A stretch of DNA of 64,000 nucleotides from Candidatus Paraprochloron terpiosi LD05 (GTDB lineage Bacteria; Cyanobacteriota; Cyanobacteriia; Cyanobacteriales; Prochloraceae): assembly GCA_018141785.1 (NCBI GenBank), contig CP073341.1, positions 2,837,261 to 2,901,260 on the forward strand. Direction: 5' to 3'. The notes beneath the pieces were generated by a model. That model searched no databases. It worked only from the letters and a program-made list of their open reading frames with translations, and was not told the origin of the DNA. The position numbers and the translations under genes are program-made. The number at the start of each line of letters is the position of its first letter. Positions within the stretch are counted from its first letter, which is position 1. This document shows, one piece after another, positions 21,890 to 58,250 of the stretch.

Positions 21890-22012
21890 TCAGTGAGCAG
21901 AGCCGTTGCCATGGTAATTATCAGAGTCGTAAAATCCATTCTTAGTAGCAAAAAATAAGGAAGATAGGATAAAAAGACCAGTTAAAATTGGCAACACTAA
22001 TTTGATTTCCAT
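21890..22012 (-). CDS. Possible 40-aa single-TM protein
   Basis: Own translation: MEIKLVLPILTGLFILSSLFFATKNGFYDSDNYHGNGSAH*. Below the track's length cutoff. Hydrophobic helix plus a polar tail. Confidence 0.3.
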   Translation of the reverse strand: MEIKLVLPILTGLFILSSLFFATKNGFYDSDNYHGNGSAH

Positions 22013-22054
22013 AGGTTTGACTTACTTCTTCTTCTATCTGTTTGGTGATAGCTG

Positions 22055-22269
22055 GACGGGTCGAAGGAGTTCCTCGCGGGACCCCAGCTCACGCAGTCAG
22101 AACCGGACGTGAAAGTTTCCATTCATCACGGCTCCTATGACCTGCGGGTGTCACCCAATTGTTACATTCGAAGGGTTGGGGTGAACCAACCGCCCCTGTG
22201 CTTAGAACCGTGCGTGAGCTCCGGTTTATTCTTGGCTTACGCCGCGATTTCGCCAGAAATGAATCGCCC
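22055..22269 (-). mobile_element. Family B mini-intron mosaic (B2)
   Basis: Minus strand GGGCGATTCATTTCTGGCGAAATCGCGGCGTAAGCCAAGAATAAAC, then a family-E-like domain V half, then domain V GAGCCGTGATGAATGGAAACTTTCACGTCCGGTTCT, then ...CTCCTTCGACCCGTC. Confidence 0.55.
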
Positions 22270-22271
22270 TA

Positions 22272-24765
22272 ATTAGAGTCGAGGGAGATGTTGCCACCTC
22301 GCCCCTCTCCTACGAACTGTACGTGAGACTTTCACCTCATACAGCTCAGGTGCTCCTATGTCTTCACGACGCGCTTTACGAGTCCGTCCTTAATGCGCTT
22401 GCGATGTATTGCTTGCGCCTGGTGACATTCTCGGTGGAGGGCAACTAGATTCTTGGGTTTCCAGTTGTTATGATTGCCGTCTTTGTGGTGCAACTCCACA
22501 GCTCCATCCCTCTCCATGAACTTACGGTTGCAATGCGGACACGTACCCTTCTGTCGCTTAATGGCGTTAGCGGTTGGGCCACTATATAGTTTAGAGTTGC
22601 GACCGACCCAATAGGAAATATTCCCATTGAAGGGTGAGGCATCACCTTTGACCATTACGTGGTCATTGACTTTCCAGGGAACTGAGGGAAAGGCTTTCTC
22701 TATCTGGGCTATTGTAAGTTGGCGTTTTGCTGCTCCTACTAGGGGTTTCCCTTTGATAGCCAGACGTCTTGCTTTCTCCGCTTCCTTAATTGCCATCCTG
22801 CGTTTTTCAGCCCTCAGCTTACGCCATACCCAGTGACTGAGTGACCATAGCGAGTGCTTGTTCATGTCGCAGTTTTTGTGGTACTGCCTCCAACCTCGGA
22901 CTTGTGACTCTATCCTTTTCAGGCGAGCATCCGTGGTTGCGCCATTCTTCCAAGTGGTCTTTATCTTGGCCTTGATGTCCGCATAATTCTCAGAGCTCGG
23001 TGTAGATTTGAAGACTCCACGGGAATTGACACGGAAGCGCCACCCCAGGAAATCGAACCCATCCGTAGCTTTACTCACCTTAGTCTTAGTTTCGTTAATT
23101 CGTAGCCCTCTGGACTTTAGGAATTCATCGATATTCTCCCGTAGCCTCTTGGTATCAGCTCCGGGTTTACAGATAAAGACCGCATCATCTGCGTAACGTA
23201 TACCCCTTATGAGAGTGCCACCTTGGCGTCTCCTTTTCCATTGATTCAACCCCAGGTTCTCAAATCCATCTAGAGCGATATTGGCCAGTAGAGGTGAGAT
23301 AACCCCACCTTGGGGGGTACCCTTCATACTGGAGGGATATTCACCACGAACGCCTGCTTTTACAGCTTTCTTTAACCCCTTTAGAGCTTCGATTGGTAAG
23401 ATTACTCCATTGAGCATGACCTTGTGGTCAATTTCGTCAAAGCATTTACTGATATCTGTTTCCAGAATCAGCTTGTCTTTACCATTTGCTTGGCTGTTTA
23501 GGTTCACGAAAATCAGCTTTTGTGCGTCCGCAGTACAGCGACCGGGTCTGAAGCCGTAGCTCCGTTCTCCGGCGGTTGCTTCGTAGGCAGGCTCGGCTGC
23601 TAACTTAAGCAGTGCTTGCCATGCCCTGTCGGCCATTGTAGGGATGCCTAATCCCCTTGTTTTGCCGTTTGGCTTCGGGATATTTACCCTTCTTAGTTGC
23701 TGGTGTTTCCAGTGGTACCAGTGCTTATTCAGCCTTTGGCATAACACTAGACGCTCATTGGTAGAAAGCGCTGTTTTTCCATCAACTCCGGGGGACTTAC
23801 GCCCTGTGTTCAGCTGTGTTACTTGTTTGACGGCCAGAGCTTGAGCTGCACGACTCTGTAATAGGAGCCGTTGTAAACGTTTGACTTTGGCTTTGTGCTT
23901 GTCCTTTTGCGCTTTGAAGATACTCCGCTGTAACCGAAATACCTGACCTCGAAATCTCTTCCATGGCAGGTCTTTCCAGACATCGTCAGCCTTCCGGCCA
24001 ATCTTCCCCGCCATTAGCAGAACTGCTAGGTGGAGCCTCAAGGCTTTTAGACTGCGGTATTCGATTGGAGTCTGGTTAGTGATATTCACAGTTTTGACCT
24101 TCATTAGTCGCTCTGATAATTACATTGGGTATCTTCTCTGTAGAAACCATCAGGCAGTTACGCCTTCTCTTACCCTCGCTCTTCCGGTAGGCCGTTAATC
24201 GGGCGACCCCACCATCTCACATATCAGGGCTTGGAATCCCTTGTTTTAATGGAGGTTGAGCGAGTTTTTACTCGTTCCGAATGACCTATTGTTACGAACC
24301 CTTGGGACTCATCCTTTGACCTATCACCAACTCAGGAATGTAAATATGCTCCACGGATTTTACGAGTTTCTTTCGGTGTCTTTTCTGCTCTATAGCGGCT
24401 TGGCAGTGTCTCTCGTTAGGTCTTTTCACTGATGATTCACGTTGTTATCCCGGTGTTCTCCCTATTAGCGGCGTAACCATCGAACCGCTCGATAGTCCGG
24501 TCCCGCCCTGCTGCCAGCTTCAGCCTGATGATTAATCTCACTGTGGCCAGATAAGGATTCACATGATTCCTTCATGGGAGAGGCTTGGTAACACGATTTC
24601 TGGCCGTGCCCTCACTCTCATAGTTCATTCAGTTGTCAGGGTTCGGTATCGTTTGTCCGTTTTCGTCCCTTTCGGTGGTTTAGATTATCGGAGACGTTGT
24701 CCCGGGAACCCTGCTCCTGCTTATGTTTGGCTCACGCCGCGACCTTCACAGGAAACGAGCCGCAC
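22272..24765 (-). mobile_element. Full-length group II intron, family A (A1), with an intact IEP
   Basis: The 5' end is GTGCGGCTCGTTTCCTGTGAAGGTCGCGGCGTGAGCC (from 24765). Domain V is GAGCTGTATGAGGTGAAAGTCTCACGTACAGTTCG (about 22313..22347). The 3' end is ...CCCTCGACTCTAAT at 22272. No mini-palindrome insertions. Confidence 0.9.
22356..24104 (-). CDS. Group II intron reverse transcriptase/maturase with a C-terminal HNH endonuclease domain
   Basis: 582 aa. RT motifs (GTPQGGVISPLLANI, IRYADDAVF), a maturase region, and HNH (CPHCNRKF...ELHHKDGNHNNW...LHRECH). Confidence 0.95.
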   Translation of the reverse strand: MKVKTVNITNQTPIEYRSLKALRLHLAVLLMAGKIGRKADDVWKDLPWKRFRGQVFRLQRSIFKAQKDKHKAKVKRLQRLLLQSRAAQALAVKQVTQLNTGRKSPGVDGKTALSTNERLVLCQRLNKHWYHWKHQQLRRVNIPKPNGKTRGLGIPTMADRAWQALLKLAAEPAYEATAGERSYGFRPGRCTADAQKLIFVNLNSQANGKDKLILETDISKCFDEIDHKVMLNGVILPIEALKGLKKAVKAGVRGEYPSSMKGTPQGGVISPLLANIALDGFENLGLNQWKRRRQGGTLIRGIRYADDAVFICKPGADTKRLRENIDEFLKSRGLRINETKTKVSKATDGFDFLGWRFRVNSRGVFKSTPSSENYADIKAKIKTTWKNGATTDARLKRIESQVRGWRQYHKNCDMNKHSLWSLSHWVWRKLRAEKRRMAIKEAEKARRLAIKGKPLVGAAKRQLTIAQIEKAFPSVPWKVNDHVMVKGDASPFNGNISYWVGRNSKLYSGPTANAIKRQKGTCPHCNRKFMERDGAVELHHKDGNHNNWKPKNLVALHRECHQAQAIHRKRIKDGLVKRVVKT

Positions 24766-24785
24766 GTAGAGTCGAGATAGGTAGA

Positions 24786-24811
24786 CCCCCGCCATTAATC
24801 AATGCCGGGGG
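24786..24811. repeat. Mini-palindrome P1 (26 nt)
   Basis: Exact copy. It replaces the loop TTACAGG found in C1 (ggtagaccc-ttacagg-ttttccccc). Confidence 0.85.
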
Positions 24812-25031
24812 TTTTCCCCCTCACAGTACCGGGCGTGCAACTTTACAACTCTGTTGAACGGGGAACATTGGGCCTCAAGTCCAAGTTTCGGATTACAAAT
24901 CCTATACAAGCGGATTTGCTTTACGTTTCACCCATTCCTACGTCAGCTGCTTCGCAATCCCATTACTGGTTTCCTACGGCGATTGCCGACCCTGTGGAGG
25001 TTTACTCGTTCCGCAATAGTTAGATTCATCC

Positions 25032-25059
25032 GGGACGCCTTCGGCGGCACCTTCGGTGT
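25032..25059. repeat. Mini-palindrome P2
   Basis: GGGACGCCTTCGGCGGCACCTTCGGTGT. It is absent at the homologous site of C1. Confidence 0.75.
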
Positions 25060-25452
25060 TAGGCTGCTCCTTACCCCGACGGCTTGGTGTCTACTTGATA
25101 AAAGTAACAATTTATCTTTCAATTGCCGCATGCCTTAACTTTCTGAATATTTATTCAGAAAGTTGCCAATGGGACTAGACGGCTAGTCCACTAACTACTG
25201 CGATTGTCTAGTCGCACGCTACTATACTATATAGTACCCTATTTTATCACAAAGATACCAAATTTGGCAACCCGACGAGGGAAAATTATCTCGCCTTGAG
25301 TTTGCCGACCGGCTCTAAACTAGGTCAATCAGAAGACAGCCCAGTACTCCAACCATAATATTTGATTTGGTTGGTGGTGTAGGGCGAGTGAGTCGAGGTC
25401 GAGGTGCATCCCCTGACCAATGCTGAAAGCGAGGGAAGGGGATAGCGCCGAG

Positions 25453-26386: not shown

Positions 26387-26643
26387 AACTGCCGTCAGCA
26401 ATGCTCTGGGTAAGCCAGTAGTCCATTCATTAACTGTGTGTCAACCCCAGCCAGAGCATAGGTAAGAGCAATCAATTCGTGGATTAGGGGAGGCTTATTC
26501 AGATATGGTTCTCTACCAAAAGTGGGAAACAGCAAGCCTTGAAAATCCCCCTTCACTGAAATTTCTTGAGCAACCTGCGCTACCGTACCTTCATCCCAAT
26601 CTCGCAGCGGTAAACTTCCAAGATTAATCCCAAATGAGAGCAA
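26387..26643 (-). pseudogene. Inverted duplicate of the 5' region of the GT39 gene (fragment)
   Basis: LSFGINLGSLPLRDWDEGTVAQVAQEISVKGDFQGLLFPTFGREPYLNKPPLIHELIALTYALAG corresponds to residues ~35-100 of ORF 28566..30185. About 88-90% nt identity by eye. Confidence 0.7.
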
Positions 26644-26645
26644 TG

Positions 26646-33481: not shown

Positions 33482-33792
33482 ACCTATAAATCCTTTATTG
33501 AGCCTGTTTATCTCGAATACTATCAGATTCTATCACAGCCAGAACTCGGCAGGATACAAAAAGAAACCGCCCGAACTATGTCCGGGCGGAGTGTGGTGTG
33601 AGGAGTGAACGGAAACATTTGTCTCCGCTATTTCTATTCTACGCTACAATTCTCGATTTGCTAGCAAAATTAAATTATAGCCCAACGCGGCAGGTGTAGT
33701 TACAACTAAAATTGAGGAACTGTTGATAGGTAATATATCCCAGTAAAATCTGTAAATAGGCTCCCGCGTTGCGCTATAAATTGACAAGACTT

Positions 33793-41909: not shown

Positions 41910-42114
41910 TATTAGACCGCAATTCGCGGGCGAGCAAGCAGCCGAGCTTTACTATTCCTGTAGGGACAACTTATGAAGTAGTAACCCCTCATAGTTTAGA
42001 AGGATGGTACGAAGAATCCACTAGTAAAGCTTTCGGGGATAAGTGGATTAGGGAGGTAAGGTCATGTATTCTCATTGTATCGTCTCTAGTAGCCAAAGAG
42101 GACAATAATATTTT
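41910..42114 (+). pseudogene. RES-domain toxin gene remnant, middle segment
   Basis: ...FTIPVGTTYEVVTPHSLEGWYEESTSKAFGDKWIREVRSCILIVSSLVAKEDNNIL. The frame continues at 47426. No N-terminal half was found. Confidence 0.5.
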
Positions 42115-42199
42115 ATTAGAGTCGAGGGAGGTGTTACCACCTCGCCCCTCTCCTACGAACCGGACGTGAGACTTTCACCTCATCCGGCTCAGATGTCGT

Positions 42200-42637
42200 C
42201 TATGCCTTTACGGCGCGCTTTGCGAGTCCGTCGTTAATACGTTTGCGGTGTACCGCTTGCGCCTGGTGACATTCTCGATGGAGAGCGACTAGATTCTTGC
42301 GTTTCCAGTTGTTATGGTTGCCGTCAATGTGGTGCAACTCCACAGCACCGTCTATCTCCATGAACTTACGGTTGCAATGCTGACACTTACCCTTCTGTCG
42401 TTTGAGGGCTTCAGCGGTTGGTCCACTGTATAGTTTGGAATTACGGTTGACCCAATAGGTGATGTTTCCGTTGTAGGGTGAGGCATTTCCTTTGACCATC
42501 ACGTGGTCGTTGACTTTCCAGGAAACTTTTGGGAAGGCTTTCTCTATCTGCTTTGATGTAAGCTGGCGTTTAGCCGCTCCTAAGGGTTTACCCTTGATTG
42601 CCAGACGTCTTGCTTTCTTTGCTTCCTTTTGAGCCAT
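42200..42637 (-). pseudogene. C-terminal (HNH) part of the outer intron's IEP
   Basis: 145-aa ORF ...WKVNDHVMVKGNASPYNG...CQHCNRKF...ELHHIDGNHNNW. Confidence 0.8.
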
Positions 42638-42750
42638 CCTGCGTTTTTCCGCCCTCAGCTTATGCCATACCCAGTGATTAGAGTCGAGGGGGATGTTACC
42701 ACCCCGCCCCTCTCCTACGAACTGTACGTGAGACTTTCACCTCATACAGC

Positions 42751-44553
42751 TCAGGTGCTTCTACACCAATGGGAGGCGCGCTTTACGAGTCCGTCTTTAA
42801 TGCGCTTGCGGTGTATCGCTTGCGTTTGATGACATTCCCGATGGAGGGCGACTAGATTCTTACGTTTCCAGTTGTTATGGTTACCGTCAATGTGGTGCAA
42901 CTCCACGGCACCATCCATCTCCATGAACTTACGGTTGCAATGCTGACACTTACCCTTCTGTCGCTTGATAGCTTCAGCGGTTGGCCCACTATATAGTTTG
43001 GAATTTCGACCGGGCCAATAGGAGATGTTCCCATTGTAGGGTGAGGCATCACCTGTAACCATCACGTGGTTATTGACTTTCCAGGGAACTGTTGGGAAAG
43101 CTTTCTTAATCTGCTCTGATGTGAGCGCGCCTCGCGCGCTCCTAAGGGTTTACCCTTGATAGCCAGACGTCTTGCTTTCTCTGCTTCCTTGATTGCCATC
43201 CTGCGTTTTTCAGCCCTCAGCTTACGCCATACCCAGTGACTGAGCGACCATAGCGAGTGCTTGCTCATATCGCAGTTTTTGTGATACTGCCTCCAACCTC
43301 GGACTTGTGACTCTATCCTTTTCAGGCGAGCCTCCGTGGTTGCGCCATTTTTCCAAGTGGCTTTTACTTTGGCCTTGATGTCTGCATAATTCTCGGAGCT
43401 CGGTGTAGATTTGAAGACTCCACGGGAGTTGACACGAAAGCGCCACCCTAAGAAGTCGAACCCATCCGTAGCTTTACTCACCTTAGTCTTAGTTTCATTG
43501 ATTCTTAGCCCTCTGGACTCCAGGAATTCGTCGATATCTTCCCGTAGCTTCTTGGTATCAGCTTTGGGTTTACAGATAAAGACCGCGTCATCTGCATAAC
43601 GTATACCCCTTATGAGAGTCCCATTTTTGCGACTCCCTTTCCATTGGTCAGACCCTAGGTTCTCAAATCCATCTAGGGCGATGTTGGCCAGTAGGGGTGA
43701 TATGACACCACCCTGGGGCGTACCCTTAATACTGGAGGGATATTCACCGCGAACGCCTGCTTTTACAGCCAGTTTGAGACCTTTGAGAGCCTCTTTAGGT
43801 AGGACTACTCCTTTGAGCATGACTTTATGGTCAATTTCGTCGAAGCATAAGAGGGATGTCTGTTTCCAAGACCAGCTTGTTCTTACCATTTGCTTGGCTG
43901 CTTAGATTCTGGAAAATCAGCTTTTGTGCGTCCGCAGTACAGCGACCGGGTCGGAAGCCGTAGCTCCTTTCTCCGGCGGTTGCTTCATAGGTTGGCTCGG
44001 CTGCTGATTTGAGCAGCGCTTGCCAAGCCCGGTCAGCTATTGTCGGGATGCCTAGACCCCTTACTTTGCCGTTAGGCTTGGGGATATTAACCCTTCTCAG
44101 TTGCTGGTGTTTCCAGTGGTACCAATGCTTGTTTAGTCTTTGGCACAGTGTCAGACGCTCCTTGGTGGAGAGTGCTGTTTTACCATCAACTCCGGGGGAC
44201 TTACGCCCTGTATTCAGCTGTGCTACTTGTTTGACGGCCAGTGCTTGGGCTGCACGACTCTGTAATAGGAGCCGTTGTAAACGTTTAACCTTGGCTTTTT
44301 GACCATTCTTTTGCGCTTTGAAGATACACCGCTGTAACCGAAATACCTGATTGTGGAATCGCTTCCACGGTAGGTCTTTCCAGACATCGTCAGCTCTCCG
44401 GCCAATCTTCCCCGCTAGTAGGAATGCTGCTAAGTGGAGCCTCAAGGCTTTTAAACTGCGGTATTCGATTGAAGTCTGGTTAGTGATATTCACAGTTTTG
44501 ACCTCATTAATCGCTCTGATAATTACACTGGGTATCTTCTCTGTAGAAACCAT
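42751..44553 (-). pseudogene. IEP pseudogene of the inner intron (3 ORF pieces)
   Basis: Track ORFs 43831..44553, 43062..43889 and 42751..43065. It has the same ETDIPLMLR/TSLLCFDEI +1 frameshift as the copy at 34570. Confidence 0.85.
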
Positions 44554-44619
44554 CGGGCAGTTACGCCCTCTCTTACCCTCGCTTTTCCGATAGGCCGTTA
44601 ATCAAGCGACCCCACCACT

Positions 44620-44649
44620 CCTGCTCCTGCGCAGCCGCGCCTGAGCAGG
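44620..44649. repeat. Mini-palindrome P3 (30 nt)
   Basis: CCTGCTCCTGCGCAGCCGCGCCTGAGCAGG. Confidence 0.8.
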
Positions 44650-45003
44650 CATTGTTGGGATTGGACTCCCCTGTTTCCGTGGAGGTTGAGCGAGTTTTTA
44701 CTCGTTCCGAATGAACTATTGCTACGAACCCTTGGGACTCATCCCTTGACCTATCACCAACTCAGGAATGTAAGTGTCTCAGCACTGAAACTTACGAGTT
44801 TCTATCGGTGTCTTTTCTGTCTTTAGCGACTTGACAGTGTCTGGTATTAGGTCTTTTTCAGATGATTCACATTAAGTTATCCCGGTGTTCTCCCTGTTAG
44901 CGGTGTTACCGACGAGCCGCTCGTCAGCTCCAGACCCGCCCTGCTGCCAGCTTCCGCCTGGTGATTAACCTCACGGTGGCCAGATAAGGATTCACGTGAT
45001 TCC

Positions 45004-45033
45004 CCTGCTCCTGCGCAGCCGCGCCTGAGCAGG
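45004..45033. repeat. Mini-palindrome P3 (30 nt)
   Basis: Same 30-mer. A1 lacks it at this site (gattcc-ttcat-gggagagg). Confidence 0.8.
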
Positions 45034-45312
45034 CGGGAGAGGCTTGGTTGCACGATTTCTGACCGTGCCCTCACTCTCATAGTTCATTCAGTTGTCAAGG
45101 TTCGGTAATCATTACCTTAGAGGTTCGGTAATCCTATTTGAATCACCTGATTCCTCTCGCGTTTTCCCTTATGGGTCTCGCGTTCAGGTAGGAGTCGTTT
45201 GTCCGTTTTCAGCCCCTTTCGGTGGCTTAGATTATCGGAGACGATGTCCCGGAAACCCTGCTCCTGCTTATGTTTGGCTTATGCCGCGACCTTTACAGGA
45301 AACGAGCCGCAC

Positions 45313-46640
45313 ACTGAGTGACCATAGCGAGTGCTTGCTCATGTCGCAATTTTTGTGATACTGCCTCCAACCACGGATTTGTGACCCTATCCTTTTCAGG
45401 CGAGCATCCGTGGTTGCGCCGTTCTTCCAGGTGGTTTTAACCTTAGCCTTGATGTCCGCATAATTCTCGGAACTCGGTGCGGATTTAAAGACCCCATGGG
45501 AATTGACCCTAAAGTTCCATCCCAGGAAGTTGAATCCGTCCGTAGCCTTACTCACCTTAGTCTTAGTTTCGTTAATTCTTAGTCCTCTGGTCTTTAGGAA
45601 TTTGTCGATATCCTCCCGTAGCCTCTTGGTATCAGCTCCGGGTTTACAGATAAAGACCGCGTCGTCTGCGTAACGAACACCTCTTATGAGAATCCCATCT
45701 CTGCGACTCTTTTTCCATTGATTCGTTCCTAGATTCTCAAATCCATCTAGAGCGATGTTGGCCAGTAGGGGTGAAATCACTCCACCCTGGGGCGTACCCT
45801 TAATACTGGAGGGGTATTCACCACGAACGCCAGCTTTTACAGCCATCTTTAACCCCTTTAGGGCTTCGATTGGTAGGACTACTCCATCGAGCATAACCTT
45901 GTGGTCAATTTCGTCAAAGCATTTGCTAATATCTGTTTCCAGTATCAGCTTTTCCCTGCCATTTGTTTTGCTTCTGAGGTTATTGAAGATTAGCTGTTGT
46001 GCGTCCGCAGTACAGCGACCGGGTCGAAAGCCGTAGCTTCTTTCTCCGGCAGTAGCCTCATAGGCAGGCTCTGCTGCTAATTTGAGCAACGCTTGCCACG
46101 CCCGGTCGGCTATTGTAGGGATGCCCAATCCACGAGTTTTGCCGTTTGGCTTCGGGATATTTATCCTTCTTAGTTGCTGGTGTTTCCAGTGGTGCCAGTG
46201 CTTGTTCAGCCTTTGACACAACACTAGACGCTCTTTAGTAGAGAGTGCGGTTTTGCCATCAACTCCGGGGGACTTACGTCCTGTGTTTAGCTGTGTTACT
46301 TGTTTGACGGCTCCCGGCATCCTCGATGGCGGGAGGCTGCACGACTCTGTAGTAGGAGCCGTTGTAAACGTTTGACTTTGGCTTTTTGACCGTTCCTTTG
46401 CGCTTTAAAGATTGCCCGTTGTAATCGAAAAACATGATACCGGAATCGCTTCCATGGCAGGTCTTTCCAGACATCACTAGCCTTCCGGCCAATCTTCTCC
46501 ACCGACAGAAATACTGCCAAGTGAAGTCTCAGGGCTTTCAGACTAGGGTATTCGGTTGTAGTCTGGTTAGTGAAATTCACAAGTTTGACCTCATTAGTCG
46601 CTCTGATAATTACATTGGGTATCTTCTCTGTAGAGACCAT
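45313..46640 (-). pseudogene. N-terminal/RT part of the outer intron's IEP (frameshifted by a P1-variant insert)
   Basis: Track ORFs 46296..46640 and 45268..46320. CTCCCGGCATCCTCGATGGCGGGAG (46311..46335) interrupts LLLQSRAA|VKQVTQLN. Confidence 0.8.
46311..46335. repeat. Mini-palindrome P1 variant (P1b)
   Basis: CTCCCGGCATCCTCGATGGCGGGAG. Confidence 0.6.
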
Positions 46641-46713
46641 CGGGCAGTTACGCCCTCTCTTACCCTCGCTCTTCCGTTAGGCCGTTAATCAGGCGACCCC
46701 ACCACTTCACATG

Positions 46714-46758
46714 CCTGCTCCTGCGCAGCCGCGCCCCCGGCATCCGCGATGGCGGGGG
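46714..46758. repeat. P3 half-copy interrupted or replaced by a P1b variant (nested mini-palindromes)
   Basis: CCTGCTCCTGCGCAGCCGCGC followed by CCCCCGGCATCCGCGATGGCGGGGG. The 3' half of P3 (CTGAGCAGG) is missing. Confidence 0.6.
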
Positions 46759-47117
46759 TTGGGCTTGGAATCCCTAGTTTCCGTGGAAGTTGAGCGAGTT
46801 TTTACTCGTTCCGAATGAACTATTGTTGCGAACCCTTGGGACTCATCCATTGACCTATCACCAACTCAGGAATGTAAGTGTCTTAATGCTGAACCTTACG
46901 AGTTTCTTTCGGTGTTTCTTCTGTCGTCTGTAACGGCCTTTCGACAGTGTCACTTCTTAGGTCTTTTCGTAGATGATTCACGATTAAGTTATCCCGGTGT
47001 TCTCCCTGTTAGCGGAAGTATCTCTGCCTAACCGTTTGGCCGCACTTTACTGCCCTGTTGCCAGCTTCAGCCTGATGATTAATCTCACTGTGGCCAGATA
47101 AGGATTCACGTGATTCC

Positions 47118-47147
47118 CCTGCTCCTGCGCAGCCGCGCCTGAGCAGG
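47118..47147. repeat. Mini-palindrome P3 (30 nt)
   Basis: CCTGCTCCTGCGCAGCCGCGCCTGAGCAGG. Confidence 0.8.
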
Positions 47148-47425
47148 CGGGAGAGACTTGGTAACACGATTTCTGACCGTGTCCTCACTCTCATAATTCA
47201 TTCAGTTATCATGGTTCGGTTATCACTACCCTAGAGGTTCGGTAATCCTATTTGAATCACCTAATTTTCTCTTGTGTTTCTCTGGCGGGTCTCACATTCA
47301 GGTAGGAATCATTTGTCCGTTTTCAGCCTATTTCTGGGCTTAAATTATCGGAAACGATGCCCCTGAAACCAAGTCCTAGCTTATGTTTGGCCTAGGCCGC
47401 GACTTTTGCTAGGAACGAGCCGCAC

Positions 47426-47513
47426 GATTAATGAAGCTCACCCCCAGTTCCCCAATATTGAAAAAAGTCTCAACCGTCCATTGGTTTGGGATAAACGACT
47501 CTTCTCTAACTGA
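47426..47513 (+). pseudogene. RES-domain toxin gene remnant, C-terminal segment
   Basis: Joined in frame to 42114 it gives ...KEDNNILINEAHPQFPNIEKSLNRPLVWDKRLFSN*. This N.L.N..HP.F....FD.RL-like ending is typical of RES proteins. Confidence 0.5.
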
Positions 47514-47687
47514 GTTATTATGATTAAACAAACTCGATTAGGCACTCTTGACAGAGAGAGAGAAAGATAAAATAACAGCTCCAAACTATCAACTAGCTGC
47601 CAGAAATGTATCTGGATTCATCTGCGTTTATCTGTGTTCATCTGCGGTTCAATACATCCACTTTAAATCATACCACAACCATGAGCA

Positions 47688-48088
47688 GTTGAAGTAGAGT
47701 GCTCTGTTACCAAAGCGACCCTCTTCTTAGAACCGTGCGTGCGATTCTCACCGCACACGGCTCCCCAATTTCATCGCTGTTAAGCGCTCTTTCTAAGAGA
47801 TGCCCTCTTTGATTCGGTCCTTGTGAACCTCCTGGTATTGATGGCATTCCCTGTGCATAGCTTTGAGATTACGGCGTTTCCAGTTATTGTGGTCTCCATC
47901 CGCGTGGTGCAATTCCACTATATCGCTAAGCAGAAACGGTTCATTGCAATGAGCACATCGAAGTTTCTGTCTTTTCATAGCCTTTCCGGTCGGACTATCC
48001 GCGTATAGTTCAGACTTCCGGTTAACCCAGTAAGTCGTGTTCCCGTCATACGGGCTTGCGGTTCCCTTAACCATTACGTGGCTGTTTA
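47688..48088 (-). mobile_element. Family E group II intron 3' fragment (E2) with the HNH end of its IEP
   Basis: Domain V is GAGCCGTGTGCGGTGAGAATCGCACGCACGGTTCT. Domain VI is ...AGAGCACTCTACTTCAAC, ending at 47688. ORF 47793..48074 has the HNH motif (CAHCNEPF...ELHHADGDHNNW). Confidence 0.6.
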
Positions 48089-48170
48089 TCGAGATAGGTA
48101 GACTCTTACGGGTTTTCCCCCTCGCAGTAACGGACGTGCAACTTTCAAAGCATCCTGCTCCTGGTGTTTC
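48089..48170 (-). mobile_element. Family C 3' fragment (C3: domain V plus a truncated domain VI)
   Basis: Minus strand GAGCAGGATGCTTTGAAAGTTGCACGTCCGTTAC...GTCTACCTATCTCGA, abutting ...TAAACAGCCACGTAATGGTT of the E2 IEP gene. Confidence 0.45.
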
Positions 48171-49379
48171 AGCTTACTCACTCTAGTAACTATCGCTTTT
48201 GTCTTATCCTTACAGGTTTTCAGACGGACTCTACTAGTGATTTTTGTCCTCTTTAATCCCTGCCCGCCTCTGTTTGCTTAATTAGAGTCGAGGGAGCTGC
48301 CACGCAGCTCGCCCCTCTCCTACGAACTGTACGTGAGACTTTCACCTCATACAGCTCAGGTGCTTCTATGCCAATGGGAGGCGCGCTTTCGTAGACCGTC
48401 CTTAATACGCTTGCGGTGTATCGCTTGCGCCTGGTGACACTCTCGATGGAGGGCAACTAGATTCTTACGTTTCCAGTTGTTATGGTTGCCATCGATGTGG
48501 TGCAACTCCACGGCTCCGTCCATCTCCATGAACAATCGGTTGCAGTGCTGACATTTGCCCTTCTGTAGCTTAATGGCATCAGCGGTTGGCCCACTATATA
48601 GTTTGGAATTCCAACCAACCCCCGCCATTGACTTTCCAGGGAATTGCTGGGAAAGCTTTCCTTTTTTGCTCTGATGTGAGCTGACGCTTCGCTGACCCCT
48701 GTGGCTTTTTGCCAAAAGTTGCCATCTGTCGTGCTTTCTCTGCTTCCTTTTGAGCCATCCTACGTTTTTCAGCTCTCAACTTCCGCCATACCCATTGTTT
48801 GAGCGACCATAGCGAGTGCTTACCCATATCGCAGTTTGAGTGATATTGCCTCCAGCCTCGGACTTGTGACTCTATCCTTTTCAGACGAGCTTCCGTGGTA
48901 GCACCACAATTCCTGAGTTGCTTTAACCTTGGCCTTTATGTCTGCATGATTCTCGTTACTCGGTGTGGATTTGAATACTTCTCTTGAATTAACGCGAAAG
49001 CGCCATCCCAGAAAATCGAATCCATCCGTAGCTTTACTCACCTTCGTCTTAGCTTCATTTATCCTTAGCCCTCTGGACTTTAAGAATTTGTCTATATCTT
49101 CTCTTAACCGCGTGGTGTCGGCTTCGGGTTTACAGATAAAGACCGCGTCGTCTGCGTAACGTATACCCCTTATTAGGCTCCTTGAGCGTTGCCTTTTCCA
49201 TTGGTCAGACTTTGACCCATCACCAACTCAGGAATGTAAATATTCTGGTCTACCTTACGAGTTTCTTTCGGTGTCTCTTCTGCTCTTTAGCGGCTTGGCA
49301 GTGTCTGCGTTTAGGTCTTTTCTCAGATGATTCACGTTAAGTTATCCCGGTGTTCTCCCTGTTAGCGGTGTTACCGACG

Positions 49380-49407
49380 ACACCGAAGGTGCCGCCCTTG
49401 GCGTCCC
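49380..49407. repeat. Mini-palindrome P2
   Basis: ACACCGAAGGTGCCGCCCTTGGCGTCCC, at the same hairpin apex as in A2. Confidence 0.75.
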
Positions 49408-49492
49408 GCTCGTCAGCTCCAGTCCCGCCCTGCTGCCAGCTTCCGCCTGGTGATTAACCTCGCGGTGGCCAGATAAGGATTCACGTGATTCC

Positions 49493-49522
49493 CCTGCTCC
49501 TGCGCAGCCGCGCCTGAGCAGG
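49493..49522. repeat. Mini-palindrome P3 (30 nt)
   Basis: CCTGCTCCTGCGCAGCCGCGCCTGAGCAGG. Confidence 0.8.
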
Positions 49523-49772
49523 CGGGAGAGGCTTGGTTGCACGATTACTGACGGTGGCCTCACTCTCATAGTTCATTCAGTTATCAAGGTTCGGTTTTCA
49601 CTACCTTAGAGTTTCGGTAATCTTTTACAATCGCCTATTTTCTCTTTAGATAGGATTGTCTGAGCCCTTCAGCCAGTTTCCCGGCTTAGATTTCACTCTG
49701 ACTTTTAGCCTAGAACCAAGCCCCTGCTTATGTTCTGCTTGCGCCGCGACTTTCACAGAGAACGAGCCGCAC

Positions 49773-50157
49773 TACCAAAACGCATCTAACTTACGGCGGG
49801 GTCTTATGTCGTGATACCTAGATTTAGTTGTCAAGGGACCCCCGCCATTAATCAATGCCGGGGGGGACGCCAAGGGCGGTTGCTTACGCAAAGCTTACGC
49901 AATCAGCTCCCTCTTGGGATATCCGCTTTTCAGTTTCTTTCGGTACTTAGATTGTGCGGGGGCTGCTTTCCCCAGCTGCAGGTTATATTTTGGCTTATGC
50001 CGCGATTTTCGCCTTCACGTCACTTTGTCTATCCTTTTGGTTTGATTTTTTCCCTGTTTTGGTTCTTAAACCTCTTGTCAGGACGCCATGTCGTTAAACC
50101 AAGCCCTAGTTTATATGCGAGCTAATGCCCACGTTTTCACGCTTGATCGAGCCGCAC
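49773..50157 (-). mobile_element. Mosaic of family D 5' end (D2) and family B 5' region, fused to the cca 3' end
   Basis: Minus strand GTGCGGCTCGATCAAGCGTGAAAACGTGGGC...GTGACGTGAAG|GCGAAAATCGCGGCATAAGCC...GCGTCCC[P1]TCCCTTGACAACTAAATC. The D/B junction falls in the shared GGCGAAAATC string. Confidence 0.55.
49839..49864. repeat. Mini-palindrome P1 (26 nt)
   Basis: Exact copy. B1 lacks it at this site (GCGTCCCAAGACAACTAAATC). Confidence 0.85.
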
Positions 50158-51359
50158 AATTCCAGAGCTTCTTCCCTAGTGGTAATTTTACCTTCTATCC
50201 GTGCTAGTTGAACTTCCCTTAATAGTTCCCCAATCTTGGGACTAGGGGGTAAATTGAGATGAGTCATAATATCCTTCCCCGTAACCAATGGCTGAGGATG
50301 AGCTACTATATCCAAAGGATCTAAATAACGGTTCATCAAAGGAGCTAAGTTTTTAAACCCCAGGCTATTTGCTACCCCTAATACTGCTACAATAGGAAAA
50401 ACATCCCCTACATCCACAAAGAAGAAATATTGCTCTTTTAGACTGAGAGGTGTTTCCAGAAGGAGCAGTTGGGGTAATACCTTTAATGCAGTAACCACAG
50501 AGCGAATTTCTGCCCGAGAATACTTCAGTTTCAATAGTTCTACTTCTGCTTCAGAAGGTCTCTGGGAAACGAGACTTGCCAGTTTGGCTGTCTTCAAGCA
50601 AGATGGATAATAATTGTTTAATTGGGGCCAAGTAGCAATCATCGTATTTGCTGCTGCGTCTATTTTAGCTACTTGCTGCAACTTTTCCGGGGTAACATTA
50701 ACCAACCAGGACTGGAACAAACCATCTCTATATGCTTCAGGCAACCATTTGTTTCCTGTTTCTTTTTTGAGTAAATATCCTAACTCCGTTTGGACTCTTT
50801 CTGCTGCTACTGCACCCAACTTACCTGCTAAACTGCGAATTGTTGCTCTGGTGAGGGGATCGATGGTAAAATTTAACTGTGCAGCAATTCGATAAGCTCG
50901 CAACAACCTTAAAGGGTCATCTTCCAGATTGGTTTTGGCTACCATTCTCATTACCCCCCGTTTCAGATCCAACCTCCCCCCTAAAGGGTCAATTATTGCT
51001 TCGGTTTTCGGGTTATAAGCGATGGCGTTGACCGTAAAATCCCGCCGTTGCAAGTCCTTTACCAAATTCTCCCCAACCTGAGGAGCAAAGTCCACCGTTG
51101 CTTCCCGAAAAACTACCCTGGCAATTTGCCGTTCTGGATCTAAGAGCACAAACCCAACCCCATAATGACGGGCTATTTTCCGTGCAGTCTCTACTGGTTC
51201 GGTGGGTAAGACAAAGTCCAAATCTAAATATTCCTGCTGAGTGGAACCCGAAAGGAAAGCATTCCGCACCGCACCTCCCACCAAATAAGCTGTTTCTGGT
51301 AGCCACTCCAAACCAAAAGGCCAATTTTGAGGCGATAAACTAGAAAAAGGCATCTTCAA
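50106..51359 (-). CDS. cca: CCA-adding enzyme (tRNA nucleotidyltransferase); last 16 codons intron-derived
   Basis: 417 aa. GGAVRNAFL...DLDF..., RRDFTVNAIAY, DPLRLLRAYR. The host-coded part ends at 50158 (...EEALEL), then CGSIKRENVGISSHIN* is read from the GTGCGGCTCGATCAAGCG intron 5' end. Confidence 0.85.
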   Translation of the reverse strand: MKMPFSSLSPQNWPFGLEWLPETAYLVGGAVRNAFLSGSTQQEYLDLDFVLPTEPVETARKIARHYGVGFVLLDPERQIARVVFREATVDFAPQVGENLVKDLQRRDFTVNAIAYNPKTEAIIDPLGGRLDLKRGVMRMVAKTNLEDDPLRLLRAYRIAAQLNFTIDPLTRATIRSLAGKLGAVAAERVQTELGYLLKKETGNKWLPEAYRDGLFQSWLVNVTPEKLQQVAKIDAAANTMIATWPQLNNYYPSCLKTAKLASLVSQRPSEAEVELLKLKYSRAEIRSVVTALKVLPQLLLLETPLSLKEQYFFFVDVGDVFPIVAVLGVANSLGFKNLAPLMNRYLDPLDIVAHPQPLVTGKDIMTHLNLPPSPKIGELLREVQLARIEGKITTREEALELCGSIKRENVGISSHIN

Positions 51360-55796: not shown

Positions 55797-58250
55797 TTTA
55801 AGGAGTCGGGTAAGGTTCAGGAATCGCTTCCATCCCCTCCCCTAAGAACCGGACGTGACAGTTTCCTATCATCCGGCTCAAGCCTCACTTCAAGCCCTGC
55901 TTGGAATTTTCTTGAATGTACCTGCTTATGACACGTTTTATGTAGGTGTTGAAGGTTGTCGATATCGTCAGAACCTCCATCCCTTATAGGTACTATGTGA
56001 TGGGTTTCGATTTCCTCCCCGTTGAAGAGGTGGTCGTGGCAGATTGGGCATTTCCAATCTTGCGACTTTCCAACGTTTTCGTATTTTGAGCCTTTAGACC
56101 ATATAATCTTGCCCGACTTCGTTCGCCGCTTTGACCAATATTCCACCTGTTCGGGGTCGTCTGGGGAATAAGCTCCCTTAACTTTGATATGTCTTTCAAT
56201 CGGGACAGTTTTTATATTGTACAAGTTATGTACTATTCTTTTGCCCCTCCGGTCATTACCTTCGTAGAAAAACACCCAATTTCTTTCGCCCGTTGTTCGG
56301 AAGTACTTTTCTTTTACCCATTTTCGTGATTTTTTGGGGTGTCGTCTTTTTGCCCAACGCCAGAGGTACCACCATACTCGGTTGTGTATATATGAAAAGG
56401 TTTCTTTGCTGCATACTCCTCTGTAGTAATTCGCAAAACCTCTGAGAAGCGGTTCTATCTTGCGGATGACCTGTTCTGGGGTTTTTGTTTTCATGCTGTC
56501 GATGGTTGCACCGACTTTCTTGCAGAGTTCTAATACCTTTGACTTCTGTGGCTCAATGATTAGTTTATCCCGTAGGATTTTATCTTCTCCTTTCACCTCA
56601 TAGTGTCTCAAGTTAAACCCCAGGAAATCAAATCCGTCTCTTAAATGTACTATCCGCGTCTTCTCATCACTAATCTCAAGACCTCGTTCTGACAGCCATT
56701 GATTTATCTGGATTTTCAATTCCTCCAAGGATTCCTTGTCCTTTGCAGTGACTACGAAATCATCTGCGTACCTGATGACGCCTACCTTTGGGTTACATTC
56801 TTTGATATATGTTTCTAACCCGTGGAGTCCGATATTTGCTAACAAAGGACTTATTACGCCACCCTGTGGAGTTCCTTTTTCAGTTGGGCTATATCCCTTC
56901 TTACTCTCGATAGATCCAGCTTTTAACCATCCATCAACCAAGGTATTTTCCCTGACTGCTGTCTGGATGGATTTATGGTCAATGTTGTCAAAGAAGCCTT
57001 TGATATCAGCGTCCAAAACCCATTTATCGTGCTTTCGCCATGTTCCGGTCTTCGTTTTATAGTCGCCGCGTAGTCTACTGAAACATTGTCCAATAGCATC
57101 TAGGCAACTTCGACCGGGTCTGAAGCCATAGGAGTTAGCTTCAAACTTGGCCTCCCATTCGGGTTCCAGTGCATTTTTGACTATTGCCTGAGCGACTCTA
57201 TCTCTGATGGTTGGGATTCCAAGAGGACGTTTCTTACCATTCGCTTTAGGAATGTATACCCGTCTGGCAGGTTTTGCCTTGGGCATTTCCCAGTTATTGG
57301 CAAGTTTCACACGCTGTGCTGGGGTGTCTATGACCTCCTTATCTACCCCCGCTGTTCGTTTTCCGGTATTTACCTGTGTGATTTGTCTGATGCTCAGTAA
57401 TAGGTTCGACCGACATCTTTTCATCAGTTTCTGTAAAGACAGTAATCGTCTCCACAGTCCAAGCTTTTGGGCACGAAATATCCGACCGCGTAAATTCCTA
57501 ACAATCTTTTTTGTGCGACGCCAGTTAATGTCGCCCCACTCAGTTAATTGTCCGTTCAGTCCATTTTCGGGAATTTCTTCCGTCATCTAACTTTTCCGTT
57601 CGTTTGGTTTCTAGTTGTCTTCAATTTTCGTATGAGACCCAAGTGAAGTCTGCTATTCCTTTCGGTCAAGGGCAAATTTTGAACCCCTATCTCCCTCATT
57701 ACAAGGGAGCATTCGCTTTTTCACTCATCCTTTACCCTCCAGAGAATTCTGCCTCCGTTACCTTTGGCTTACTAACGGACTCGACCCTCCGTTAGACTCT
57801 GTAGGGCTTATCCTGTTGTTTCGCTTAGTTTTCTTAACTGGTTAGGCTGGTTCCTTTCCCCCGGTAGCGCTCTGGTTCCCCGAATTGATAATACTCCAGT
57901 ATCAATTCTTCCCGAACTGATAACCATATAGTGTCAGTTCCTGTCTACTTGCCATTTTGGCTAAGGCGTATCAGAGATAATTTCGCCTTTCATGGGTCAC
58001 GAGGTTTATACGGAGGGATTCGTTGAAGGCGAATCCTTTTACTTCACTTTCGTTCAGCCTTCCAGCTATTTCCCTCTTGCTCCTGACCCTTAATCTCTAG
58101 GGCTTCGGTTACTTTCGGGGTCTGCATTCCAACGGTTTTATTACTTACTCCCGCCGTGACCGGACTCATAGAGTCTTTTCCGTGAGGGCTAGGGGTGGAA
58201 CTCCCTAGGGGACTCGATGTCCCGTACTAAACGACCAGTTCAGGCCGCGC
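55797..58250 (-). mobile_element. Full-length group II intron, family F, with an intact IEP; boundaries approximate
   Basis: Domain V is GAGCCGGAUGAUAGGAAACUGUCACGUCCGGUUCU at 55845..55879. Domain VI has a bulged A (CCCGA*CUCC) and an end near 55796..55799. The 5' region GCGCGGCCUGAACUGGUCGUUUAGUACGGG starts at 58250 and is non-canonical (GCGCG). Confidence 0.8.
55817..57586 (-). CDS. Group II intron reverse transcriptase/maturase with an HNH endonuclease domain
   Basis: 589 aa. GTPQGGVISPLLANI, IRYADDFVV, a maturase region, and HNH (CPICHDHL...THHIVPIRDGGSDDIDNLQHLHKTCH). The C-terminal tail EPDDRKLSRPVL is a translation of domain V. Confidence 0.95.
   Translation of the reverse strand: MTEEIPENGLNGQLTEWGDINWRRTKKIVRNLRGRIFRAQKLGLWRRLLSLQKLMKRCRSNLLLSIRQITQVNTGKRTAGVDKEVIDTPAQRVKLANNWEMPKAKPARRVYIPKANGKKRPLGIPTIRDRVAQAIVKNALEPEWEAKFEANSYGFRPGRSCLDAIGQCFSRLRGDYKTKTGTWRKHDKWVLDADIKGFFDNIDHKSIQTAVRENTLVDGWLKAGSIESKKGYSPTEKGTPQGGVISPLLANIGLHGLETYIKECNPKVGVIRYADDFVVTAKDKESLEELKIQINQWLSERGLEISDEKTRIVHLRDGFDFLGFNLRHYEVKGEDKILRDKLIIEPQKSKVLELCKKVGATIDSMKTKTPEQVIRKIEPLLRGFANYYRGVCSKETFSYIHNRVWWYLWRWAKRRHPKKSRKWVKEKYFRTTGERNWVFFYEGNDRRGKRIVHNLYNIKTVPIERHIKVKGAYSPDDPEQVEYWSKRRTKSGKIIWSKGSKYENVGKSQDWKCPICHDHLFNGEEIETHHIVPIRDGGSDDIDNLQHLHKTCHKQVHSRKFQAGLEVRLEPDDRKLSRPVLRGGDGSDS

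What the first reader, a model, noticed from the sequence alone, without database searches (positions are those of the whole stretch)
42115..47425. Same-family twintron: a family A intron inserted exactly between two codons of another family A intron's IEP gene
- The outer intron's IEP frame reads ...AAG CAC TCG CTA TGG TCA CTC AGT on the minus strand, ending at 45313.
- It resumes CAC TGG GTA TGG CAT AAG CTG at 42676. This reconstitutes KHSLWSLS|HWVWHKLRAEKRR, the same peptide as in the intact IEP (HSLWSLSHWVWRKLRAEKRR).
- The 2636 nt in between start GTGCGGCTCG and end CGACTCTAAT, so they are a complete family A intron in the same orientation.
- Unoccupied copies of the site TCACTCAGT|CACTGGGTATGG persist in A1 (junction at 22835/22836) and in the inner intron itself.
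- The conserved domain I string CCUGAGUUGG includes CUGAGU, complementary to ACUCAG. That sequence ends 1 nt before the insertion point, so the EBS1-IBS1 match is only approximate.
- Both IEPs are now broken.
Basis: seen in the sequence. Interest (0 to 1): 0.7.

Follow-up and report, generated by a model that had tools for sequence, protein, structure and literature searches.

The report
Decayed group II intron twintron
One mobile group II intron has inserted precisely into the protein gene of a related intron in a Prochloron-type cyanobacterial symbiont; this intron-in-intron is real, but it is a known kind of arrangement and both copies are now crippled.

Summary
On the minus strand, a 2636-nt family-A group II intron (45312->42677) sits between codons 423 and 424 of the protein (IEP) gene of a related intron (47425->42115). 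With the inner copy removed, the outer one is colinear with the reference copy A1 and its reading frame is restored with no duplication or loss.

The conserved CCUGAGUUGG string is one strand of a stem. The true EBS1, EBS2 and EBS3 are variable loops that covary with the flanking exons in five copies. The inner intron's set matches the ORF site in exact register, which indicates RNA-guided reverse splicing.

Both introns keep canonical ends, D5 and D6. Both IEP genes are broken: the outer by a 14-nt net palindromic insertion as well as by the inner intron, the inner by two frameshifts. dN/dS of about 0.15 says the two sublineages diverged while still functional.

Contigs spanning the two inner-intron junctions occur at single-copy depth in four public runs between them. 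No RNA data were available, so splicing is untested.

Related Prochloron and Paraprochloron genomes carry other twintrons in the same IEP gene. Precedents exist in Thermosynechococcus, Methanosarcina, Trichodesmium and plant mitochondria. This is a new member of a known kind, of modest interest.

The parts
42115..47425 (-). Whole twintron (5311 nt): outer family-A group II intron with the inner intron nested in it.
   Evidence: Ends read; colinear with A1.
45313..47425 (-). Outer intron, 5' segment: domains I-III, start of domain IV, and IEP codons up to S423. The start ATG is at 46640.
   Evidence: A1 nt 1-1930 aligns here; alignment of the five copies; ORFs.
42677..45312 (-). Inner intron, complete (2636 nt): 5' GTGCGGCTCG, 3' CGACTCTAAT. 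The IEP gene (ATG at 44553, stop at 42751) has two frameshifts.
   Evidence: A1 nt 1-2494 aligns here at about 85-93% identity. ORF pieces lie in frames 0/1/0. Pfam finds RVT_N, RVT_1, GIIM and HNH on the pieces.
42115..42676 (-). Outer intron, 3' segment: IEP codons from H424 (end of the X domain, then D and HNH/En; stop at 42200), followed by D5 and D6.
   Evidence: A1 nt 1930-2494 aligns here at 85%. The joined frame is open from the junction to the stop. Weak HNH match (E 0.0046, 17.5 bits, below the 21.4 gathering cutoff) on the joined protein.
45313..45324 (-). Target site of the inner intron inside the outer IEP gene: IBS2 UGGU (45324-45321) and IBS1 CUCAGU (45318-45313). IBS3 is the C at 42676.
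   Evidence: Complementary to the inner intron's EBS2, EBS1 and EBS3.
44778..44783 (-). Inner EBS1, GCUGAG, in the terminal loop of a GUAAG/CUUAC stem.
   Evidence: Variable loop that covaries with the 5' exons in five copies; fold; coordinates.
44842..44846 (-). Inner EBS2, (U)ACCA.
   Evidence: Variable 5-mer between the conserved AAAGACCUAA and GACACUG. Cognate pairing is the best in 5 of 5 copies.
44745..44745 (-). Inner EBS3, G, which pairs with the first 3'-exon base (C at 42676).
   Evidence: The N column in GGUCAA[N]GGAUGAG covaries with the +1 exon base in 5 of 5 copies.
46883..46889 (-). Outer EBS1 region, G(C)AUUAA. It pairs with UUAAU(C) at 47431-47426 with either a C.C mismatch at -1 or a bulged C.
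46952..46956 (-). Outer EBS2, GAAGU, which pairs with GCUUC at 47437-47433. Outer EBS3 is the U at 46849, which pairs with the A at 42114.
42677..42754 (-). Inner D5-D6: AGC triad and bulged branch A.
   Evidence: RF00029 at 60.4 bits; consensus fold with compensatory pairs.
42115..42192 (-). Outer D5-D6.
   Evidence: RF00029 at 60.5 bits. It differs from the inner D5 and D6 only by compensatory pair changes.
46311..46335 (-). 25-nt hairpin element CTCCCGCCATCGAGGATGCCGGGAG in the outer IEP gene. It adds a net 14 nt and shifts the frame in the RT N-terminal region.
   Evidence: Comparison with A1 and the inner copy; the repeat has a second copy at 46734-46758.
43845..43856 (-). Inner IEP +1 frameshift region (ETDIPLMLRRN* where other copies read ETDISKCFDEIDH).
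43123..43138 (-). Inner IEP -1 frameshift region, a palindrome GAGCGCGCGAGGCGCGCUC that replaces the usual sequence.
43227..43253 (-). Unoccupied copy of the same target site inside the inner intron's own IEP gene (one mismatch, at position -7).
22272..24765 (-). Reference copy A1, with an open 582-aa IEP (22356-24104) and an unoccupied target site at 22824-22850. It is a candidate source of maturase acting in trans.

Best explanation
This is a genuine but decaying group II twintron in a Prochloron-clade cyanobacterial symbiont.

Proposed history:
1. A family-A intron (subgroup IIB-like, with an RT/X/D/HNH intron-encoded protein, IEP) reverse-spliced into DNA about 240 nt downstream of the cca gene. 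It lies antisense inside a RES-domain toxin gene. Its own EBS2, EBS1 and EBS3 guided the insertion.
2. Later, an intron of a sister sublineage inserted into the sense strand of that intron's IEP gene. The site is the codon boundary S423|H424 in the maturase (X) domain. The inner intron's EBS2 (ACCA), EBS1 (GCUGAG) and EBS3 (G) pair with UGGU, CUCAGU and C there, so this was retrohoming or retrotransposition by target-primed reverse transcription, and it left a seamless junction.
3. Both IEP genes then acquired frameshifts, so neither copy is autonomous.

Both ribozymes still have canonical 5' and 3' ends, D5 and D6. Any present splicing would therefore need a maturase supplied in trans, for example by A1.

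Because the inner copy sits in the domain IV loop, the outer ribozyme could in principle fold without its removal.

Shown here: anatomy, colinearity, base-pairing covariation, ORF lesions, and presence in independent samples. Inferred: the order of events, the insertion mechanism, and the dependence on a trans-acting maturase.
For: - Ends and colinearity are confirmed.
- There are two separate D5/D6 hits. Compensatory changes between inner and outer in D5 (pairs 19:44 and 21:42) and in D6 (pair 64:78) show that structure was preserved.
- The joined frame restores HSLWSLSHWVW.
- The junction lies inside the GIIM domain: residues 377-433 in A1, with the junction at 423|424.
- EBS1 and EBS2 are variable loops that match each copy's own 5' exon. 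EBS3 covaries with the +1 base in 5 of 5 copies.
- dN/dS is 0.15-0.17 between copies, so they diverged under selection before the frameshifts arose.
- The A1 IEP matches TIGR04416 (E 4e-88) and the TeI4h IEP in 6ME0 (E 3.6e-81).
- Exact junction-spanning contigs occur at single-copy depth: X1 (both junctions), X2 (5'), X6 and X8 (3').
- Another inner-like copy sits after the same 13-nt IBS2+IBS1 block in unrelated DNA. This supports RNA-guided targeting.
- Relatives carry other introns inside this IEP gene: L029, L030 and L015.
Against: - No RNA data exist, so neither splicing nor its order is known.
- Inner EBS2-IBS2 is only 4 bp.
- Outer EBS1 needs a mismatch or a bulge at position -1.
- Only one occupied instance of this exact ORF site was found. 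Two unoccupied cognate sites lie in the same window.
- No inner-less allele of the outer intron was found in two collection scans or in the laid contigs, so the order of events rests on anatomy alone.
- The composite could have moved as a unit before decaying.
Confidence: 0.85

Rival explanations
1. The twintron is still active. It splices sequentially, the inner intron first, to regulate or restore expression of the outer IEP.
For: Both ribozymes keep GUGCG, AAU, the D5 AGC triad and the D6 branch A. The EBS-IBS pairings are good. Sequential splicing is documented for the Trichodesmium twintron and a Lycopodiaceae twintron.
Against: Even after removal of the inner intron, the outer IEP keeps a 14-nt frameshift near its N-terminus. 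The inner IEP has two frameshifts. The locus is intergenic or antisense to a dead toxin gene, so no host function depends on splicing. No RNA evidence is available.
Confidence: 0.1
2. The inner sublineage is specialised to home into the family's own IEP gene, which serves as a perpetual safe-haven site as in Methanosarcina. On this view the insertion is not a one-off ectopic event.
For: The target lies in a conserved protein-coding block (LWSLSHWVW). IBS2 is conserved across relatives. The EBS1/2/3 match is in exact register. Relatives show repeated intron insertions into this IEP gene at other sites.
Against: Only one occupied instance was found, and its junction contigs are single-copy. A1 and the inner intron carry cognate sites that are empty. 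About 92% of family copies in run X1 carry a mismatch at IBS1 position -2. An inner-like copy also sits at a site outside any IEP gene.
Confidence: 0.2
3. The arrangement is an assembly artefact, or the product of recombination between two tandem copies, and not an insertion.
For: The family is highly repeated, on the order of 100 copies. Head-to-tail tandem copies exist in a relative (L012).
Against: Exact junction contigs occur in four independent runs at single-copy depth. The breakpoints coincide to the base with intron termini on one side and a codon boundary on the other, with no duplication or loss. The site matches the inner intron's EBS set. Recombination between homologous copies would join homologous positions, not position 1930 to position 1.
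Confidence: 0.03

Closest known systems
Thermosynechococcus elongatus twintrons: F3 ORF-less TeI3 introns inside the ORF of F1 TeI4 introns (Mohr, Ghanem and Lambowitz 2010, PMC2882425)
   Same: This is also a cyanobacterial, chloroplast-like-type intron family that has split into sublineages with different EBS sets. [quoted passage not shown] The A1 IEP is closest to the TeI4h IEP among solved structures (6ME0, E 3.6e-81).
   Different: Here the inner intron is full length and ORF-bearing, not ORF-less. The site is in the X-domain coding region and not between the first two ATGs. Only one occupied instance is known, and both copies are degenerate. The inner copies in T. elongatus are identical and recent, whereas here inner and outer differ by 15%.
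Methanosarcina acetivorans nested group II introns (Dai and Zimmerly 2003; summarised in PMC4424553)
   Same: [quoted passage not shown] The exons carry no host gene function. Nesting creates a graveyard or safe haven for introns. The window likewise holds about 11 kb of stacked intron remnants.
   Different: That system is archaeal, with up to five levels of nesting at repeatedly used sites. Here only one level is shown at this site, and repeated use of the site is not demonstrated.
Plant mitochondrial twintrons: atp9i87g2-twin and the 'zombie' twintrons, including an intron that invaded itself (Zumkeller, Gerke and Knoop 2020, PMC7049729)
   Same: [quoted passage not shown] There are same-family (paralogue) invasions. 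Some cases are fossilised, with the maturase degenerate and the inner intron possibly no longer spliced.
   Different: Those are organellar and were verified at the RNA level. Here the host is bacterial and RNA is untested.
Trichodesmium erythraeum Tery_4732 twintron (Pfreundt and Hess 2015, PMC4649490)
   Same: It is a cyanobacterial group II twintron of about 5.1-5.4 kb with an inner intron of about 2.5 kb.
   Different: There the inner intron lies 154 nt into the host intron, in the ribozyme part. The twintron interrupts a conserved protein gene, and sequential splicing was shown. Here the inner intron lies in the IEP ORF, and the twintron is intergenic and antisense to a pseudogene.

Membership tests
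Group II intron (both inner and outer) | Consensus boundaries: 5' GUGYG and 3' AY | tested here: met
   GTGCG at 47425 and 45312...CTAAT at 42115 and 42677.
Group II intron (both inner and outer) | Domain V with the catalytic AGC triad, and domain VI with a bulged branch adenosine | tested here: met
   RF00029 at 60.5 and 60.4 bits against a threshold of 40. The consensus fold has 13 of 29 pairs kept through changes on both sides.
Group II intron (both inner and outer) | Domain IV encodes an IEP with RT, X/maturase and (optionally) D/En domains | tested here: met
   RVT_N, RVT_1 and GIIM (and, on the inner piece, HNH) pass Pfam's cutoffs on A1, the joined outer and the inner pieces. HNH on the joined outer is sub-threshold (17.5 bits against 21.4), and Pfam reported no HNH on A1, where the motif was seen only by eye. 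TIGR04416 scores E 4e-88 and 295.9 bits, just under its 300-bit cutoff. The reading frames of inner and outer are disrupted.
Group II intron (both inner and outer) | EBS1/IBS1, EBS2/IBS2 and EBS3/IBS3 (or delta-delta') pairing with the flanking exons | tested here: met
   Inner: 6 + 4 + 1 pairs. Outer: 5 + 5 + 1 pairs. Covariation is seen across five copies.
Group II intron (both inner and outer) | Splicing by lariat formation, in vivo or in vitro | not testable with these tools
   No RNA-seq run could be found.
Twintron | A complete intron, with its own termini, lies inside another intron. The outer intron is contiguous once the inner one is removed. | tested here: met
Twintron | Sequential or independent splicing of the two introns | not testable with these tools
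   No transcript data. The laid contigs show no 42676|45313 joint, but contigs cannot show absence.
Chloroplast-like (CL) IEP lineage / subgroup IIB RNA | The IEP clusters with CL IEPs in a phylogeny. The RNA has IIB features: EBS3 in the coordination loop and EBS2 in an internal loop of domain Id. | tested here: inconclusive
   The best solved relative is the TeI4h IEP, and an EBS3-type single-base contact was found. No phylogeny was built, and no Rfam D1-D4 model matched.

The most novel reading that the evidence does not exclude
One sublineage of this very abundant intron family may have retargeted itself to a conserved 26-nt block (-13 to +13) in the maturase-coding region of its own relatives. 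It would then act as an intron that parasitises the family's IEP gene. A copy of the same block also appears to exist, and to be occupied, outside any IEP gene. That would suggest the target cassette itself has been spread or mimicked.
Probability: 0.15. Interest if true: 0.5.

Novelty: new member of a known kind. Interest (0 to 1): 0.3.

Why it matters
The locus adds a clean bacterial example of one ORF-bearing group II intron invading the maturase-coding region of a related one. It comes with base-pairing covariation that pins down the family's EBS1, EBS2 and EBS3.

It also shows that Prochloron-type symbionts carry a very large, recently active chloroplast-like-type intron family, on the order of 100 copies, that nests and stacks on itself. 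That bears on how introns proliferate and decay in host-restricted genomes, and on annotation: the published Paraprochloron genome paper reported 50 'RNA-directed DNA polymerase' genes without recognising them as introns.

It does not reveal a new mechanism.

Tried and rejected
rejected. It is invariant in five copies with five different 5' exons and pairs with AAACUCG.
- **Collection scans:** exact scans of genome contigs and metagenome contigs for the 5' junction found nothing. A metagenome scan for an inner-less outer allele also found nothing. The source genome is apparently not searchable there.
- **RNA-seq:** no run was found.
- **Rfam D1-D4 class models:** no match, even at E <= 1.
- **Other occupied copies of the ORF site:** laying Logan contigs on A1's empty site was uninformative because the contigs are only 60-100 nt long.
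- **Second-site flanks:** attempts to identify them failed. There was no hit in the window or loci, no Pfam, NCBIfam or PDB hit, and the peptide was too short for the homologue search.
- **Simple EBS1 cross-pairing matrix:** it is noisy when G.U pairs are allowed, because one flank is U/G-rich. EBS2 and EBS3 give the clean signal.
- **Assembly artefact or tandem recombination:** rejected on junction precision and on contigs from independent runs.


Full report
**1. Observation**

Reading 42000-47600 on the minus strand and scanning for family termini gives four junctions:

| Junction | Sequence | Coordinates |
|---|---|---|
| Outer 5' end | TTCATTAATC\|GTGCGGCTCG | 47426/47425 |
| Inner 5' end | CTATGGTCACTCAGT\|GTGCGGCTCG | 45313/45312 |
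| Inner 3' end | CGACTCTAAT\|CACTGGGTATGG | 42677/42676 |
| Outer 3' end | CGACTCTAAT\|AAAATATT | 42115/42114 |

The inner element is 2636 nt. blastn of the reference copy A1 (24765->22272, 2494 nt) against the window gives three alignments:
- A1 1-1930 = 47425..45313
- A1 1930-2494 = 42677..42115
- A1 1-2494 = 45312..42677

The outer halves are therefore colinear with A1 across the junction, and the inner element is a full copy. Rfam finds a separate D5/D6 at 42115-42192 and at 42677-42754, each at about 60 bits. The joined outer frame reads KHSLWSLS|HWVWHKLRAEKRR. The junction falls between codons 423 and 424 in A1 numbering, inside the GIIM/X domain (residues 377-433). Unoccupied copies of the site are at 22824-22850 in A1 (exact) and 43227-43253 in the inner intron (one mismatch).

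**2. Exon-binding sites**

In folds it pairs with the upstream AAACUCG. It is a stem strand, not EBS1.

Three positions vary and track the flanks:
- **EBS2:** a 5-mer between AAAGACCUAA and GACACUG.
- **EBS1:** the loop closed by GUAAG/CUUAC.
- **EBS3:** one base in GGUCAA[N]GGAUGAG.

| Copy | EBS2 : IBS2 | EBS1 : IBS1 | EBS3 : +1 base |
|---|---|---|---|
| Inner | ACCA : UGGU | GCUGAG : CUCAGU (6 pairs, G.U at -1) | G : C |
| A1 | CGAGA : UCUCG | GUGGAG : CUCUAC | A : U |
| Outer | GAAGU : GCUUC | (C)AUUAA : UUAAU(C) | U : A |

The single-base column matches the +1 exon base in 5 of 5 copies, using three different pairs. EBS2 pairs best with its own flank in 5 of 5 copies. The inner intron therefore matches the ORF site in exact register.

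**3. State of the two copies**

- **Outer IEP:** besides the inner intron, it has a net 14-nt insertion, a 25-nt hairpin at 46335-46311. This shifts the frame after codon ~103 (ORF terminates at residue 114).
- **Inner IEP:** it has a +1 shift (about 43856-43845) and a -1 shift (about 43138-43123, a GAGCGCGC/GCGCGCUC palindrome).
- **Domains:** the order RVT_N, RVT_1, GIIM, HNH is recognisable on the pieces.
- **A1:** it keeps an open 582-aa frame with YADD. It matches TIGR04416 (E 4e-88) and the TeI4h IEP of 6ME0 (E 3.6e-81).
- **D5 and D6:** inner and outer differ only by compensatory pair changes, and the AGC triad and branch A are kept.
- **Divergence:** overall identity is 84.9% for inner versus outer, 87.6% for A1 versus inner, and 85.4% for A1 versus outer. 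dN/dS is 0.15-0.17 for all pairs, and dS for inner versus outer is 0.56.

Most of the divergence therefore accrued while the IEPs were under selection, and the frameshifts are comparatively late.

**4. Is it real DNA?**

Logan contigs of public runs hold exact junction-spanning pieces at single-copy depth:

| Run | Contig(s) | Junction spanned | Depth (single-copy depth) |
|---|---|---|---|
| X1 | 45283-45347 and 42623-42704 | 5' and 3' | about 1500-1580 |
| X2 | 45283-45348 | 5' | 145 (about 200) |
| X6 | 42623-42704 | 3' | single-copy |
| X8 | 42623-42704 | 3' | single-copy |

The outer junctions are also exact in X1. No contig joins 42676 to 45313, though contigs cannot prove absence. No RNA run was available.

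**5. Context**

The outer intron lies about 240 nt downstream of the predicted stop of a CCA-adding enzyme gene (50158-51359, minus strand), on the same strand. That gene's 3' end is itself interrupted by a 2470-nt mosaic of intron fragments (50157->47688).

On the plus strand, the two flanks of the twintron (41910-42114 and 47426-47512) join into the C-terminal half of a RES-domain toxin. The Pfam match runs across the junction (E 1.2e-5, 25.9 bits against a 23.2 cutoff). The outer intron is thus antisense in a toxin gene remnant, which another family-A copy (41909->39220, with no recognisable D5) also truncates.

**6. Organism and relatives**

The closest IEP genes are in a Prochloron sp. 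MAG (OZ240666.1) and in Ca. Paraprochloron terpiosi SP5CPC1. Host DNA in locus L021 of the Prochloron MAG is about 90-95% identical to window 21225-22053, 25218-25387 and 26636-27940, but it lacks 22054-25217, the segment that holds A1. The window therefore comes from a close relative of that MAG, and the family has moved since the two genomes split.

Relatives carry other twintrons in the same IEP gene:
- In L029 and L030, an ORF-less intron of about 830 nt ends exactly where the ORF resumes, between residues 101 and 102.
- In L015, the same kind of intron lies near residues 37-40.

The exact IBS1 of the present site (CUCAGU) is confined to the A1/inner/outer subgroup. Relatives read CUGAGC, CUGCGC and similar at that position.

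**7. A second site**

Single-copy contigs in X1, X2, X6 and X8 end in an inner-like 5' terminus preceded by the same 13 nt (AUGGUCACUCAGU), then run into unrelated DNA. Others end in an inner-like 3' terminus followed by CACUGGGUAUGGC, then unrelated DNA. I could not show that the two flanks belong to one locus, nor identify them. At the least, the 5' flank shows a second insertion guided by the same IBS2+IBS1 block outside an IEP gene.

**8. Comparison with known systems**

- Insertion of one sublineage into the IEP ORF of another, with matching EBS/IBS and IEPs acting in trans, is described for T. elongatus.
- Repeated homing into related introns is described for Methanosarcina.
- A maturase-interrupting inner intron, self-invasion and fossil 'zombie' twintrons are described for plant mitochondria.
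- A spliced cyanobacterial twintron is described for Trichodesmium.
- Cyanobacterial chloroplast-like-type expansions of up to 101 copies are on record.

No paper in the searched library links Prochloron to group II introns. The Paraprochloron genome paper noted 50 RT genes without calling them introns.

**9. Verdict**

This is a new member of a known kind and is probably a fossil. Interest is 0.3.

Noticed in passing
window 41910-42114 and 47426-47512 (+): The two flanks of the twintron join on the plus strand into the C-terminal half of a RES-domain toxin (Pfam E 1.2e-5, with the match spanning the junction). The outer intron is antisense in this gene, and the N-terminal half is missing beyond the neighbouring intron at 41909.
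   Followed up: partly
window 47688-50157 (-): A 2470-nt mosaic of fragments from several intron families interrupts the last codons of a CCA-adding enzyme gene. It includes an internally deleted family-A copy (49772->48281), a mini-intron D5/D6 piece (48179-48089) and a foreign HNH ORF. Removing it would give ...EALEF|AHGCGMI*.
   Followed up: partly
window 14132-14971 (-); 24771-25217 (-); L029 4293-5124; L030 4294-5125; L015 642-1469: This is an ORF-less 'mini' group II intron family of about 830-840 nt. In Prochloron and Paraprochloron relatives it sits inside the family-A IEP ORF, forming further twintrons. In the window, a deleted copy ends 5 nt upstream of A1, so A1's IBS2 and part of its IBS1 lie in the mini-intron's 3' end.
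   Followed up: partly
window 44620-44649, 45004-45033, 47118-47147, 49493-49522 (-): A 30-nt palindrome, CCTGCTCAGGCGCGGCTGCGCAGGAGCAGG, occurs four times. All four copies are exact and all lie inside introns that are otherwise only about 85% identical. One position is unique to the inner intron, and an inverted version is in the 41909 copy. It looks like a small mobile or converting element.
   Followed up: partly
window 46311-46335 and 46734-46758 (-): A 25-nt hairpin repeat, C[CT]CCCGCCATCG[AC]GGATGCCGGG[AG]G, occurs twice, both times in the outer intron. One copy causes the IEP frameshift. Loose ends in runs X6 and X7 show the same element in other copies.
   Followed up: no
window 22054-25217 versus L021 3370-3378: The segment holding A1 and the mini-intron remnant is absent from the otherwise 93-95% identical locus of Prochloron MAG OZ240666.1. 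This is an empty-site comparison showing recent activity of the family.
   Followed up: partly
window 22830-22840; run X1: Per-position contig depth over the IEP site is about 235,000 against about 1,500 for single-copy DNA. This implies on the order of 100 or more family-A copies per genome. About 92% of them have A instead of G at IBS1 position -2.
   Followed up: partly
L012 595-5854: Two family-A introns lie head to tail in the Prochloron MAG, the second starting immediately after the CTCTAAT end of the first.
   Followed up: no
runs X1, X2, X6, X8; flanks of window 45313-45325 and 42664-42676: Single-copy contigs show an inner-like intron flanked by the same 13 nt on the 5' side and, in other contigs, the same 13 nt on the 3' side, embedded in unrelated DNA. 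This may be a 26-nt copy of the IEP-ORF target outside any IEP gene.
   Followed up: partly
window 55805-58200 (-): An unrelated group II intron has an intact 589-aa IEP (RVT_N, RVT_1, GIIM, HNH) and shares no nucleotide similarity with family A apart from D5.
   Followed up: no
window 24630-24650 region of A1 (alignment columns 136-224): A1, the only copy with an open IEP, lacks about 89 nt of domain I that the other copies have. Contigs in the runs show that many genome copies also lack it.
   Followed up: no
window 33565-33628 (-): A Yfr1 cyanobacterial sRNA is present (Rfam, 61.7 bits), consistent with a cyanobacterial source.
   Followed up: no
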